Below are positions 351-50,160 of a stretch of DNA of 64,000 bases, piece after piece (the first letter of the stretch is position 1; each line of letters starts with the position of its first letter). This stretch comes from Raja brachyura. Its lineage: Eukaryota. The notes beneath the pieces were generated by a model. That model ran no database searches. It worked only from the letters and a program-made list of their open reading frames with translations, and was not told where the DNA came from. Made by a program: the position numbers and the translations under genes. The stretch lies in contig OY740794.1 of the NCBI GenBank assembly GCA_963514005.1, positions 20,274,001 through 20,338,000 on the forward strand, read 5' to 3'.

Positions 351-770
351 GACAGATAGACAGAGAGATAAAATCACGAGGGGCATAGACAAGGTGAATG
401 GTCAGAATCTATTTCCCAGAGTCTAAAATGAGAGGGCTTAGATTTAAGGTGAAGAGGACCTAATGCCCCTGTCCCACTTAGGAAACCTGAAAGGAAACCT
501 CAGGAGACTTGTGCCCCACCCAAGGTTCCGGTCACTCTCCCTAATGGTGGAAATGGTTTCCGCATAGTCGAGGTTTCTTCTATGTTCTTTCAAAATTATT
601 TCAAAACTATGTTCTTTCAAAGTTATTTAAAAAAACAAAACTGGCCTCAACTAAAAATAGCTTGCCGTTTGGTCAAAGCCAGTGGAGTGGGGTTGCTATT
701 TACTTACAGGCAGTCGAAGGCAATCTCCTTTGCTGACCGGCCATTTTGATTGGCTCATTGGAGATTTCAG

Positions 771-792
771 CAAAGATCCTGTCGGATCTTTG
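771..792. mobile_element. 22-bp palindromic TIR-only insertion (hAT-like)
   Basis: CAAAGATCCTGTCGGATCTTTG is flanked by GATTTCAG / GTTTTCAG (8-bp TSD, 1 mismatch). Confidence 0.7.
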
Positions 793-1005
793 GTTTTCAG
801 AACCTAGAAGATCTGCCTAGAAGATCTCTGTCCTTCTCTCCCATTCTTTCCCCTTCTCTCCCTCCCTCCTGCGCTCTCTAAAGGACTTACTGTGCTCTGT
901 GACAGCCGTTTACCTTCCTCTTCATCATGCAGACAGCGCTCCTCCGCTGTTCCTGGCCCCCACCTTCACGATGTATTTGTGTGTGTGTGTGTGTGCGGTC
1001 GGTAG

Positions 1006-1027
1006 CAAAGATCCTATAGGATCTTTG
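1006..1027. mobile_element. 22-bp perfect palindromic TIR-only insertion (hAT-like)
   Basis: CAAAGATCCTATAGGATCTTTG is flanked by GTCGGTAG / ATCAGTAG (8-bp TSD, 2 mismatches). Confidence 0.7.
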
Positions 1028-2243
1028 ATCAGTAGATACAGCTCACGTTTCAGTCGAGGCTCTCCAGGCAAGTGACCAAAACCTCTGGTGACTCATGGAG
1101 AGTGACCGGAACCTCCAGGAACCTCACGAAAACCTTGGGTGGGGCGCAAGGTCTCCAGAGGTTTCCGTTCAGGTTTCCTAAGTGGGACAGGGGCATAAGG
1201 GACAACTGTTTCACACAAAGGGTGGTAGGTATGTGGGATGATGCTGCCAGAGGATGTGGTAGAGGTGGGTGCAATTACAGCATTTAAAACCCATTTGGAC
1301 AGGTTCTTGGATAAATATGGTTTAGAGGAACATTGGCCACACACGGGCAAACAGAACTAGCTAAGGTTGGCATCTTGATCGGCATGGATAAGTTGTGATG
1401 AGAGGCATATTTCCATGTTGTATGACTCTATGAGGATAACAATGGGGATATAGGAAAAAAAATAGGGATGCAGGGAGTGAATGCCATCACTTTCAAAGAA
1501 ATAGCACAGGCAGAATGGGCACATTGATTTCCTCTGGGAGATTCTGTGACCATAAAGCATATAATAACTAATGCCACCCTACCATGCAAAATCAGATTTA
1601 CCACTTGAAAGAAGCATGAATATTTCTTTATTTATAAAGTTAGTTGAACTAAATTCTGAATGTACAGTCACTTTCCCAATGCCAATGATCAAACCAGACT
1701 ATGGAGAAAATGTTTTGCCTTCTTCTCTCTATTGCCAACAGTGAAATATCATCATAAACTGGGATATTAACATTTTAATTTTTTACCTTGCTTTCTAATT
1801 CCATTTCAAACTAATTATCCATTCAATAACCAAAAATGTTTTATAAATCCACTGCCTTGAGGGAGAAAATGTTCTTTCTAATCTGTCGCATTCCAAAACA
1901 TTAATTCTAAACGTCATTTTGCAACTCTCAGTCAATAATTTATTTTATTGACAATATCTGAGTTTTGCAGCATTTGGGAGGTGAAGCAGATATTGAGACA
2001 CATTAATAGACTTGCTGCAAGTGATAATGAAATGAGGTGCAAAAATGGAAAATTGTTGGTTGAATTCCTACTGAGGATGAAATGTTTAAAATTAATAAGC
2101 CTTAATTATGTCAGACATTAAAAACACAGTTTATTTTATGTTTTTTTTGTGGGGGGGGGGGGGGGGGGAGGGGAGGGGGCGGGCACTCTACATATTGAAC
2201 AGACTCCTATCCAGCAAAGGATAGGAATCACTATCTCACAATA

Positions 2244-3990: not shown

Positions 3991-5077
3991 TAAAGATTTT
4001 CTTAAAGTTTTCATCTAAGACAACCAATTTGTTACAACCAAGGAGAATCTATTACCTGCAAGGGTACTAAATATTTTAAGGCAGACTAATTTTAATGTTA
4101 AGACTTACAATTGTAATAATTATGATTAATAAAAGATTTGAGGACAATGATTCGGTTTATATATTAAGCTGCTGTATAACCTCCATTGATTACTCCAATG
4201 GATGCATCAGTTATAAACATGTTACATATAAGTATATATATTTTATCAACAGGTACAATGCATGTTCGTTCTGTTAGTTTCACGTTTCTGCTTCTGTTTC
4301 TTACATCTGGTTTAGTTCTCCATTGTCTGATCAGGTCAACAAATAGCTTTCTATTAAAGCTTTTAGAGGCAAAAGTGTCAAGTGTTGTGCAAGATGGGAG
4401 ACCTTTATTTCAATGTGGAAAATGGCAGCACAGTGATATATTATTATGTATGTCTTTTGATTTTCGATTAGGGTGTCTATGTGCTTGTATGAAATTGATG
4501 TAAACATCTCAGCCTTGCCCATGACTGCATGTCCTTCTCATCGTATTTAGAGATGATGTGTTTCAGATAACCATTCCACTAGAAAATATTCAAAAGGTGA
4601 CCCGACCGTGAAAGTTTTGAATAATGGCATTTTGTATGGGTTATTCAGATGGGTCAGACTTGAATATTACCAGTGCTTTTAAACTACTCATCACAGATCC
4701 ACCATATCGTTACGCAAAGTATCAACAAATACTTCCATGTTCCCTGCTTTGGGAAAATAGCAAGTATAACATTCCAGTTATTTTTCTGTGTGTGAAAATC
4801 ACTCCTGTTCATACTGACTTGGAATGTCCAGGGGAGATTTGTAAGAACATTGCCAAGGCTGGAGAATGATGGTTATAAATATGGCATATGTTTACTTGTT
4901 ATAGGTATTAACAACAGAACAATAAAATTATTACTTGCAGATGGATAACAGGCCTGTAAATGTAAAACACACAGATACATAAAATATATATATTTTTAAA
5001 TCAATACATAGCTGTGATACTAGTGCAAAAAAAAGTCCCTATGCAACGCAAGACAAAGTTTATAGAATATGTACGCG

Positions 5078-5380
5078 GAGGCACAGTGGCGCAGCATGGT
5101 GACTCAGTGGTGCAACAGTAGAGTTACTACCTTACAATGCAGGAGATCTGGGTTCAATTCTGACTACAGGTGCTCTCTGTATGGAGTTTGTACGTTCTTT
5201 CTGTGACCGCGTGGGTTTCCTCCAGGTGCTTCAGTTTCTTCCCACACTCCAAAGACGTACAGGTTTGTAGGATAATTGGCTTAGGTAAATATTGTAAATC
5301 ATACCTAGTGTGTAGGATCGTGCTAATGTAAAGGGTTCACTGATCGGCGTGGACTCGGTGGGCTGAAGGACATGTTTCCA
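5078..5380 (+). mobile_element. HE1-type tRNA-derived V-SINE
   Basis: tRNA-like head (ggcacagtggcgcagc...gggttcaattc) and V-domain gtttgtacgttc...gtgggtttcctccaggtgcttcagtttcttcccaca. Confidence 0.85.
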
Positions 5381-5479
5381 TCAGGAAGGAACCGCAGATG
5401 CAGCTGTCCCCGCAAAACGCCAAATGATTCTGGAAATGCCGAGGCGAGAGGGTGAGAGAGAGGGAGTGAGAGAGCAAGT

Positions 5480-5878
5480 GAGATCCAGAGGACGGATTCG
5501 GATCCCAACTATGCCTCGCTGAGACCACGCCAGAAGTTTCAAACCTACGGCCCCCTCTAGTTCGAGCCACGTGGACCAAGATACCCCATTGTAAACAACC
5601 ACGTTCGCTACTTTGACTGGAAGTTCACGTTCTGCCACAGTCCCACCAGCAGTTCACAGCTGTTTGATATCCGCTTTAGGAAGGAGCGGGTGGTCTACGA
5701 GTTGAGCGTCCAGGAGGTGAACTCCGTTTACGGCGGAGAGACGCCATGTCTGATGAGGGCCAAGTTCTTAGACAGTCATTATGGAATTGGGAAAAGTTCC
5801 AATGAGCTGGTGAAAGATGTGGACTGCCCTTACAGCGCCACTTTCCTCCACACTCTCCATCTCATGGAGACTGGAAAC
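5480..5878 (+). pseudogene. Copper amine oxidase (AOC1/AOC2/AOC3 family) gene fragment
   Basis: One frame reads DPNYASLRPRQKFQTYGPL*FEPRGPRY...WKFTF...QLFDIRFRKERVVYELSVQEVNSVYGG...YGIGKSSNELVKDVDCPYSATF. This matches AOC3 PLQFYPQGPRF...[20 protein letters not shown]...GVDCPYLATY. In-frame TAG at 5558-5560; truncated at both ends. Confidence 0.88.
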
Positions 5879-6400
5879 CAAAGATCCTATAGTGGAGCAA
5901 GATAGTCCACTCGACGAAAAAGCCGTAGTAGGGTTATGGGTAATCTTCAGCACCATTTCCGTAACCGGCTTCCGTCTCTGCTCTAGTAACTGCTTTAGTC
6001 ATGGCTTCTTCATGCACAAATCATCTTTTTGTTTCTCAGCTGCAGGTGATCATTTTGATATTCCTGCCTGGTCCTCCTTATTAACTTTGAGCATACAAAA
6101 TATTGCCATTTGGAAGGAGCTCCAGAAAATCATACACCTACTCAAACCATCCTTCCCCCTCCCCCCGCACCTTCCCTCCGACATGGATACAAATCGCCGC
6201 CCCCCTTTTTTTTGTTAAACATCTATTTCCTTTGGGTGTTTTTTTTAAATACCCCCCTTACTATTTCCATACTTTTTCGATAGATGCCATGAAACATTTG
6301 ATGTCATCCTTCACACTGCTCCTGGTCTCTGCCCGCACCAATCTGCCGGACATGTTGTGTGTGTGCATGTGTGTGTGTGTGTGTGTGTGTTTGTTTGGCA
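5879..6400. mobile_element. Probable end of a hAT-like non-autonomous DNA transposon
   Basis: Begins CAAAGATCCTATAG, identical to the arm of the 22-bp palindromes, exactly where AOC homology stops. The other end was not identified and the extent is uncertain. Confidence 0.45.
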
Positions 6401-6433
6401 GAGTCTGAAGGGAGAAGCACCGGCACCGAGAGT

Positions 6434-6698
6434 GAGTGAACGCGCAGATAGACGGACGAAAGCAACGATCATAGAGCGTAATATGTGACATGTCAGGTCA
6501 AGACCCTTCTTCAGACTGACAGTCAAGGGAAAGGGAAATGGGAGATATAGGCATATCTTCCATTCATTTGTCCTTAGTACCGTCTATATCACTTGTTCCT
6601 CCTTCCCCTGACTCAGTCTGAAGAAGGGTCTCGACCCGAAATGTCATCTATTCCGTTCTATGATCGTTGCTTTCGTCCGTCTGTCCACGCGTTCGCTC
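6434..6698. repeat. 45-bp inverted repeat enclosing inverted Penelope pLTR fragments
   Basis: Arms at 6434-6478 and 6654-6698 match at 40/45. The interior has cccttcttcagactga and tcagtctgaagaagggtctcgacccgaaatgtca. Confidence 0.75.
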
Positions 6699-7829
6699 CC
6701 TTGGATTAAGTAGTGCAGGATAAATCTGCAAATTCATGCACAGGATGGAAACTGGAAACTGAAAAGTAGGGGAACGCCATCCCCCTGCGTACCTCCCCAT
6801 TTCCATCACTTATGGTACGTTATGATGAAGTCTCCTCTCTAGCTTCCAGACTCAAGTGAACGTAAGCGTAATTGAGCAAAACATGAAGTGCTGTAGTAAG
6901 TTCAAGATTTGCTCAAGATTCCTGCAACTGCAGTTCTCTGTTTCTCCATAAGCCTAATTGACCCAATCTTTCTTCATTCATCTGTTCTGCTATCGCAAGA
7001 ATCAGTCTAATGAGCTTTCACTGAATTTATTTCACATAAAGAACATCTATGCTCAGAAAAAGAAACTAAAACTGTGCACAATACTCAGGGCACAGGCTCA
7101 CCAAGGCCCTGCACCATTGAGAAAGGACATCCTTGCCCTATTCTTAAATCCCAAGGAGACGCTATTTAGACCTGGGCTGTTTTCTTTGCAACTTTAGGAG
7201 ACTGTTAGGAAGTTTACTTGAGGTGTATGAAATTAAAATATTTCTAGATTTGGTAAAAAAAAAAATAGGACCTCACCAAGGAGGTCTGTACTAAAGGGGA
7301 TGCAAGAGACAGTGGATAGTGGAATCTTGAACAAAAGACAAACTGCTGGAGGGAACTCAACAGTTCAGGTAACATTTGTGGAGGGAAATGGAAAGAAGAT
7401 ATTTTGCGTTGGGACACTTCTGTTTGAAGATCAGTACTGAACTTAAACGTCATCTGTCCATTTCCCTCCACAGATTAGTTGACCTGTTGAGTTCAACCAG
7501 CCATTTCATTTTTGTTCAGTAATTAGGGGGCATAGATTTAAATCAGTTAAATAGTTGAAGGATTAAAGTGAAATAGAGCAAAAAAAAATCACTGGATCTT
7601 ATTGCCTGAAAAGCCAGTTCAGGGAAAAGCTCAGCCTCAGCTAATAAATACCTAGGTACCACTTGACTAGATGTAATCTGCAGGGCTATGGAGCAAATGC
7701 TATAACATAGGATTAATTTAAAATCCTCTTTTGGCTGGAATGAACATGATGGACTGAATGGTCTCCTTTTATGATTCCACATTCATTCCGCTCCATGGTT
7801 GAAAGAGAAATCATTCATTTTCTGCATAG

Positions 7830-48959: not shown

Positions 48960-50160
48960 AATGCAGTGGCTTTATAAGGTGTGCATCAGACCTCATTTGG
49001 AATATCTGAGGAAGGATGTGCTGATGTTTGAGAGGGTCCACAAGAAGCTTATAAGAATGACCCAGGGATGATTGGGTTAATGTATGAGAAGAGTAGAATT
49101 ACTCTGGACCTGTATTTACTAGGATGCGAGGTGATCTGACTGAAACTTACCGAATAATGAAAGGTCTAGACAGAGTGGATGTGGAGAAGATGCTTCCACT
49201 AGTGGGAGAGTCTAGGACCAGAGGGCACAGACTCAGAAAAAAAAGCACATACCTTTAAGTGGCTGTCCCATGCGGGCAACCTAATCCACGAGGTAAGAAG
49301 AGTGTCTTCGACCTTCAAGCTCAAGGGCACTCACCTGGAAAGCCTCGAGCTGGATCGACTGTTCGCGTTAAAAACCGCAAGCTGGATCGACCGACCACCC
49401 ACACAAACACATCGCATAGTTGGGGGCTAGGGAAAGCGGGGGAACGCTATTTGAAATTCACACCCACGATGAAGAGGAAGGTAAAACAGTATGGTAAGTC
49501 TTTTAGAGAGCGCATGGGGGGGAGGGGGGGGGGGAGTGGAGAGAAGTGGGTGGGGAAAAGGAATGGAGACACTTTTAAGAAGTATAATAAAGTTTAGCGG
49601 GCATTTTACCTACCGGTAGGTTTTCCTTGGTCCTGAAAACTCCAATGAGCCAATCAAAATACCCGGTCAGTGAAGGAGATTGCCAACGGCTGCCCTCGAC
49701 TGCCTGTAACTAAATAGCGACCGCACTCCACTGCATTACACAAAAGAACCATGCTGACCAAATTTTACTCACGGAAAATGTTTCAACATGCTGAGAGTTC
49801 CAGCGACCTCATAGGACCTCCTAGGACCACGTGTCGACCATGCTGTGAGTTTGAAGGTTGAAGGCACTGTTCTAAACTCGCAGATTAGGTCGCCCAAGTG
49901 GGACAGCCCCTTTAGAATAGATGTGAAGAGGAATTTCTTTAGTCGGCAGTGAATCTGTGGAATTTTTTGCCACAGACCGCAGTGGAGGTCAACTCATTGG
50001 GCAATTTAAAATTGGAGACAAGCAATTAGCAATGGTGTCAAAGATTACGGAACGAAGGCAGGAGAATAGTGTTGAGAGGGAAAAGTCGATCATCCATAAT
50101 CGAATGGCGGAGCAGACGTGATGGGCCAAATGACCACATTCTGCTCCTATTCTTACGATC
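48960..50160 (+). mobile_element. CR1 3' fragment split by a MITE
   Basis: IRPHLEY...; continues as tta gaatagatgtgaagaggaatttcttt after the MITE. Confidence 0.75.
49258..49911. mobile_element. PIF/Harbinger-type MITE (relative of 464-1195, opposite orientation)
   Basis: TIRs AGTGGCTGTCCCA / TGGGACAGCCCCT and TSD TTA. The internal ctccaatgagccaatcaaaat...cactccactg is the reverse complement of ~680-762. Confidence 0.85.

What the first reader, a model, noticed from the sequence alone, without database searches (positions are those of the whole stretch)
763..1035. Two 22-bp palindromic 'TIR-only' insertions with 8-bp TSDs, with empty sites visible in a paralog
Seen: CAAAGATCCTATAGGATCTTTG (1006-1027, perfect palindrome) and a variant (771-792) each sit between near-identical 8-mers. 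The related MITE at 49258-49911 has each 8-mer once and no insert (CTGAAAAC at 49633-49640, CGACCGAC at 49388-49395). The same arm, CAAAGATCCTATAG, starts a longer element at 5879. Known: 8-bp TSDs are typical of hAT elements. Inference: CTATAG is self-complementary and so forms a direct repeat between the two TIRs, and microhomology collapse would leave exactly 8+6+8 = 22 bp. These are either a stereotyped collapse scar or an extremely small mobile unit, and two landed within one MITE.
Basis: partly seen in the sequence, partly recalled or inferred. Interest (0 to 1): 0.72.

Follow-up and report, generated by a model that had tools for sequence, protein, structure and literature searches.

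The report
P-transposon excision scars, 20-base cut
These two 22-letter mirror-image inserts are made of the two tips of a jumping gene related to the fruit-fly P element and are most likely the scars it left when it cut itself out; similar scars across the genome suggest its enzyme cut about 20 letters into its own ends rather than the fly's 17.

Summary
Observation confirmed. The exact 22-mer occurs 342 times, but 30 of the first 35 copies are the same two sites, inherited as the host MITE multiplied. The arm is a P-superfamily end, not hAT: a 6.8-kb element with these ends and a perfect 8-bp TSD holds P-transposase pieces, and ~400-bp non-autonomous copies exist. The 22-mer is one class in a series of TIR-only inserts (22-40 bp); 44 of 70 independent sites have a perfect 8-bp TSD. 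Arms stop at base 20: 174 matches keep 20 bases, 1 runs further, against 82-89% expected from random collapse. This matches Drosophila P donor-site repair products (PMC2895639), so they are likely excision footprints, with an inferred stagger of 20 (possibly 21) nt against 17 in the fly. The CTATAG join (14+14-6) may be direct or a later slip from a 28-mer. No full-versus-scar allele pair was found. The scan reported this before on other DNA, including this genome (e1-8579981).

The parts
763..770 (+). left copy of 8-bp TSD, site 1
   Evidence: 1 mismatch to 793-800
771..792 (.). 22-bp TIR-only insert, site 1 (two substitutions, shared with host copies L008 and L015)
793..800 (+). right copy of 8-bp TSD, site 1
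998..1005 (+). left copy of 8-bp TSD, site 2
   Evidence: 2 mismatches to 1028-1035
1006..1027 (.). 22-bp TIR-only insert, site 2: first 14 bases of each P-type end joined over CTATAG
1028..1035 (+). right copy of 8-bp TSD, site 2
464..1195 (.). host MITE, 732 bp, inverted ends, TAA on both sides (3-bp TWA duplication; the label PIF/Harbinger-like is recalled)
49258..49911 (-). related MITE, TTA on both sides, both sites empty
49388..49395 (+). empty site 2 (single 8-mer)
49633..49640 (+). empty site 1 (single 8-mer)
5879..5994 (+). P-type end (TIR plus 14-bp subterminal repeat at about 5953) closed in other copies by a short arm of a sister TIR family; about 116 bp, no TSD, nested in a larger repeat; right limit approximate

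Best explanation
The two 22-mers are the tips of a P-superfamily DNA transposon between 8-bp target duplications, and are likely its excision footprints, later multiplied passively by the MITE they sit in. Steps: (1, shown) elements with these ends exist, as 4.7-7.5-kb copies holding P transposase and as ~400-bp non-autonomous copies, all with 8-bp TSDs. (2, inferred from Drosophila P) the transposase cuts one strand at the element's edge and the other inside the TIR, so each side of the donor break keeps a 3' tail of TIR. (3, inferred from the length series) the tail is about 20 nt. (4, inferred) end joining anneals the two tails at short complementary stretches: 20+20 = 40 bp, 20+20-2 = 38, 20+15-2 = 33, 15+15-2 = 28, and 14+14-6 = 22 at CTATAG. 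(5, shown) a host MITE lineage carrying such scars at two sites then spread. The scars lack the subterminal repeats and are predicted to be immobile.
For: Parent: of 20 ten-kb stretches around P-transposase hits, 3 have TIRs plus a perfect 8-bp TSD around the hit; L114:1781-8627 has this very arm and RNase H-N, GTP-binding and RNase H-C pieces over cut-off. A related 700-aa open frame hits only the Drosophila P transposase in the PDB (6P5A, E 1.4e-29). 11 of 21 loci are 381-410-bp elements with these ends; TSD mismatches 0 in 6, 1 in 3, 2 in 2. TSDs: 155 locus records (a few the same place twice) fall into 70 sites; 44 perfect, 56 at most 1 mismatch; mismatched pairs 0.6% of 4830; other lengths 4-11 bp give 0-1. 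Target motif S-T-Y-Y-R-R-A-S resembles the P core GTCCGGAC (PMC2577343 passages). Arm limit: 174 matches keep 20 bases, 1 continues with TIR bases 21-23, although 1260 intact 25-base ends exist and simulated collapse gives 82-89% longer arms. Four independent 20+20 joins (L163, L202, L203, L204). 37-bp scars carry the one-base-shorter end variants of the 400-bp elements. A sister TIR family shows the same limit in 100 listed of 194 rows, mostly one host-amplified scar. Same architecture as fly P junctions (PMC2895639 section 7, Table 1).
Against: No host copy with a full element at site 1 or 2 (0 of 21 matches; exact-match pattern). No full-versus-scar pair across species at the two sites tested. 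The L114 transposase is broken and Pfam finds no THAP in it; THAP was found only in the sister element L099. The cut itself is not observed. A 32-bp class (7 of 28 rows) fits 21+12-1 as well as 20+12, so 21 is not excluded. The target motif also resembles Hobo and Hermes motifs (table in PMC2577343), so it does not separate P from hAT. Both window sites being 22-mers, and one host site with both 28-bp (14 records) and 22-bp (4) alleles, suggest that some 22-mers arose later by slippage. Samples were chosen by exact patterns and by order in the genome; the TSD count takes the best member per site (all records: 70 of 155 perfect, 102 at most 1 mismatch).
Confidence: 0.88

Rival explanations
1. 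Still a P excision scar, but the 22-bp form is secondary: repair first gave a longer palindrome (28 bp holds CTATAG twice in tandem), which lost one unit by slippage while the host MITE was being copied. This changes only the last step of the best explanation.
For: One host site has 28-bp (14 records) and 22-bp (4) alleles; other hosts have 38/33 and 36/35/22 alleles. On a tree of 17 flanks the four 22-bp alleles do not group, but no branch is well supported.
Against: 14 sites in the sample hold only 22-mers, 8 with a perfect TSD. No 28-bp allele was seen at the window's two sites. One 22-mer is unchanged in length in four other organisms.
Confidence: 0.3
2. Transposase-independent collapse: an intact element is deleted between the CTATAG copies in its two TIRs by slippage or microhomology repair.
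For: The arithmetic gives 22 bp; CTATAG is a 6-bp direct repeat between the TIRs; one 58-bp product with a long arm exists.
Against: It predicts no limit at base 20; simulated collapse gives 82-89% of arms of 23 or more bases among those of at least 20 against 1 observed for 174. The TIR match runs to 25-27 bases, so a hairpin-loop deletion would keep more.
Confidence: 0.06
3. The 22-mer is itself a mobile mini-element moved by the P transposase.
For: 342 exact copies, and independent sites with perfect TSDs and empty paralogs.
Against: 30 of the first 35 copies are two inherited sites. It is one class in a length series. It lacks the 14-bp subterminal repeats found 83-103 bases inside the 400-bp elements; fly transposase binds internal sites (PMC7776569 passages). 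22 bp cannot be cut 20 bases in from both ends. The tested 22-mer is old and fixed.
Confidence: 0.03
4. The ends belong to a hAT element.
For: 8-bp TSD and a T..A target preference are shared with hATs.
Against: Elements with these ends hold P domains; no hAT family appeared in 51 + 9 frames scanned. hAT excision makes hairpins on the flanks (PMC5499845 passages), which would not leave TIR tips.
Confidence: 0.02

Closest known systems
Drosophila melanogaster P-element donor-site end-joining products (PMC2895639, passages and section 7 with Table 1 read)
   Same: 8-bp TSD on both sides, TIR tips only, joins at short microhomologies, blunt joins and templated insertions, a hard upper limit on arm length.
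   Different: Limit is 20 (perhaps 21) bases here, 17 in the fly; these are natural, fixed scars counted in hundreds in a vertebrate genome, many amplified by host MITEs, not laboratory events.
Drosophila P element and its transposase (PDB 6P5A; review PMC7776569, passages)
   Same: RNase H with GTP-binding insertion, the three acidic positions align by eye, 8-bp TSD, subterminal inverted repeats about 100 bp inside, unequal spacing at the two ends (about 86 and 98 bases), internally deleted copies.
   Different: TIR about 25-27 bp with another sequence; no intact transposase was found inside TIRs in the 20 stretches examined.
Zebrafish Pdre2 / THAP9 transposon (PMC10983969, passages)
   Same: Vertebrate P-like element with 8-bp TSD, TIR and subterminal repeats.
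   Different: 13-bp TIR of other sequence, subterminal repeats 400 bp inside; the passages read give no cut position for the zebrafish enzyme.

Membership tests
P superfamily | Transposase with RNase H domain and GTP-binding insertion between the TIRs | tested here: met
   L114: PF21787 (two pieces), PF21788, PF21789 over cut-off; pieces 50-74% identical to the L096 frame, whose only PDB hit is 6P5A
P superfamily | N-terminal THAP domain | tested here: inconclusive
   PF05485 E 1.7e-10 in sister element L099; none at E 0.05 in L114 frames
P superfamily | 8-bp TSD | tested here: met
   44 of 70 sites perfect; L114, L112, L099 perfect
P superfamily | Subterminal inverted repeats | tested here: met
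   14-bp repeat at each end in 10 of 11 400-bp elements per side and in L114
P superfamily | Long staggered cut leaving TIR tails on the donor | tested here: inconclusive
   Inferred from the arm limit at base 20; cleavage not observed
P superfamily | GTP-dependent cleavage | not testable with these tools
   needs biochemistry
P-type excision footprint | TSD + TIR tip + TIR tip + TSD, arms no longer than the stagger, microhomology joins | tested here: met
   against PMC2895639 Table 1
P-type excision footprint | Same site holds the full element in another allele, paralog or species | tested here: inconclusive
   0 of 21 pattern matches; not seen at two sites across species; small tests
hAT | hAT transposase in elements with these ends | tested here: not met
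   no hAT family in 60 frames scanned, from three elements plus two other frames; no genome-wide hAT search was run
hAT | 8-bp TSD | tested here: met
   shared with P, not diagnostic
MITE (mobile unit) | Uniform size, copies at independent sites, cis sites for transposase | tested here: not met
   length series 22-58 bp; 30 of 35 copies inherited; no subterminal repeats

The most novel reading that the evidence does not exclude
A vertebrate P-family transposase cut 20 nucleotides into its ends, not the 17 known from the fly, so the stagger is a family-specific property; the genome keeps hundreds of its germline repair junctions as a fossil record of cleavage geometry and end joining, old enough to be shared between related species.
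Probability: 0.65. Interest if true: 0.65.

Novelty: new variant of a known kind. Interest (0 to 1): 0.5.

Why it matters
The 17-nt staggered cut is the signature of P transposition, and the papers read give it only for the fly enzyme. Scars that stop at base 20 predict the cut position of a vertebrate relative and name the substrate (ends, subterminal repeats) for a direct test, which bears on how THAP9-type enzymes cut. The series is also a natural sample of germline end-joining junctions from one defined break. For annotation it warns that tiny palindromes with TSDs are scars, not micro-transposons, and that their copy number is inflated by host MITEs. Eight literature searches (listings only) showed no paper on natural genome-wide P footprints in a vertebrate or on a 20-nt stagger; the library lacks most subscription papers and Repbase could not be searched.

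Tried and rejected
Treating 5879 as the start of the parent: rejected, it is nested in a composite repeat without its own TSD. Search for a full element at host sites 1 and 2: 0 of 21 matches; the four at those sites were 22-bp variants. Cross-species alleles: the L245 element runs into its flanks in 3 of 4 runs, the fourth unclear; the L178 22-mer is spanned without a 22- or 30-bp gap in 4 of 4 runs; neither gave a full-versus-scar pair. Tree of one host site to test repeated 28-to-22 shortening: unsupported branches (17 of 18 loci parsed). THAP in L114: not detected. Generic scan of the window for other short TIR+TSD inserts: 4 hits, the two known and two AT-rich chance-like ones, against 0-1 in 5 shuffles. 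The loose arm-length column over-reads a few rows (23-25) because it tolerates mismatches; the limit rests. Two primary papers (PMC428445, PMC3779457) were not held, so nothing is taken from them. Sequence look-up in earlier findings returned nothing. No supplements were read.

Full report
Observation. The exact 22-mer occurs at 342 places in the window's 2.7-Gb genome, reversed control 0. Of the first 35 places, 8 are site 1 and 22 are site 2 of the same host MITE family, 3 are one site in a tandem repeat and 2 are single sites. Host copies occur with both sites empty (49258-49911), with site 2 only (L048) and with both filled (window, L001, L008, L010, L015), and the site 1 variant of the window is shared with L008 and L015. 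The two inserts are therefore two old events inherited by a spreading subfamily. The host spans 464-1195 between TAA triplets; calling it PIF/Harbinger-like is from recall.

Whose ends. The arm at 5879 is not the parent: it lies inside a composite repeat and has no TSD. A search for the P/THAP9 RNase H family gave 29 matches. In 20 ten-kb stretches around them, three elements with inverted ends and a perfect 8-bp TSD enclose the hit: L114:1781-8627 (6847 bp, this arm at both ends), L112:159-7617 and L099:4363-9073 (sister arms); a fourth, L106:4831-8428, has one TSD mismatch read by eye. L114 holds broken RNase H-N, GTP-binding and RNase H-C pieces; L099 holds THAP, the P HTH domain and RNase H; no hAT family appeared. 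A related 700-aa open frame (L096, no TIRs seen within 10 kb) matches only Drosophila P transposase in the PDB, E 1.4e-29. Eleven of 21 loci are 381-410-bp non-autonomous elements with these ends, with a 14-bp subterminal repeat about 86 and 98 bases from the two ends; L114 has it too. There are 1260 exact 25-base ends in the genome.

The series. Short inserts that begin with the arm and end with the opposite tip gave 739 + 728 matches, many counted on both strands and many host-amplified. I pooled 155 locus records (chosen by exact patterns, a few duplicated); they fall into 70 sites, 44 with a perfect 8-bp TSD and 56 with at most one mismatch, against 0.6% of 4830 mismatched pairs; other duplication lengths give 0-1. 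The target reads S-T-Y-Y-R-R-A-S, like the P core motif and also like Hobo and Hermes (PMC2577343 passages). The common lengths follow from joining two tips at complementary bases: 22 = 14+14-6, 24 = 18+9-3, 28 = 15+15-2, 33 = 20+15-2, 38 = 20+20-2, 40 = 20+20.

The limit. 174 matches keep a 20-base arm (100 listed); only one insert genome-wide continues with TIR bases 21-23, and it is 58 bp. Uniform deletion of intact 400-bp elements would give 82-89% such arms among products of this size. Four independent sites are 20+20 joins, and no 41- or 42-bp join is among the 28 rows with A at base 21. A 32-bp class (7 of those 28) fits 21+12-1 as well, so 20 is the best estimate and 21 stays open. A sister family shows no longer arm in 100 listed of 194 rows, most of them one amplified scar, and a 40-bp insert of a third arm type reads as 20+20 (L108).

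Mechanism. Fly P transposase cuts 17 bases inside its TIRs (PMC7776569 passages), and repaired donor sites are TSD, TIR tail, TIR tail, TSD with microhomology, blunt or inserted joins (PMC2895639 section 7, Table 1). hAT enzymes form hairpins on the flanks instead (PMC5499845 passages). The parent elements, TSDs, series, limit and inheritance are shown here; the cut and the repair route are inferred. Whether a given 22-mer formed at repair or by later loss of one CTATAG from a 28-mer is open: one host site has both (14 and 4 records) and the tree is uninformative.

Against and missing. No full element was found at the window's two sites. Cross-species tests gave no full-versus-scar pair: the L245 element is shared by 3 of 4 runs, the fourth unclear, and the L178 22-mer is present in contigs of four other organisms differing by about 0.5-5%, so these events are old.

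Standing. The footprint type is known from fly experiments; the inferred 20-base stagger and the natural genome-wide record are the new part. Eight searches of the held library showed no such report (listings only). The scan's own earlier notes, seen after my reading was written down, reach the same view on other DNA, one in this genome with a 20-base offset; they are not independent support. The label skate or ray for this genome comes from those notes and was not tested.

Noticed in passing
window ~5000-6811; L017, L022-L024, L027, L029, L036: A 1.8-2.4-kb repeat (2138 first-look candidates for one 242-bp part) carries a copper amine oxidase fragment (window 5561-5902, PF01179 E 1.1e-25). 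In 7 of 30 loci both inverted ends were found, with an 8-bp TSD perfect in 4 and off by one in 3: a Pack-type element, hAT-like by recalled end sequence, amplifying a captured exon.
   Followed up: partly
window 6463-6673: Arms of a third TIR type face each other 210 bp apart, with flanks that are inverted rather than directly repeated; part of a fold-back inside the Pack-type repeat, unexplained.
   Followed up: no
L029:529-560: A 32-bp TIR-only insert of a sister arm with perfect TSD inside the same Pack-type repeat.
   Followed up: partly
L096:3782-5884 (G000:C3): Uninterrupted 700-aa P-transposase frame with no TIRs seen in 10 kb: a candidate domesticated or intact copy.
   Followed up: partly
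L099, L106, L113, L108: P elements themselves carry scars of sister P elements; one site has 36-, 35- and 22-bp alleles.
   Followed up: partly
L239, L241, L245, L248, L250, L251: Subterminal repeats lie about 86 and 98 bases from the two ends, a 12-base difference; the fly element's binding-site spacings, 9 and 21 bp, also differ by 12.
   Followed up: no
G000:C2:52355405-52373318 and C1:20489527-20517890: 22-mers recur at about 6-kb and 13-15-kb spacing, pointing to large tandem arrays.
   Followed up: no
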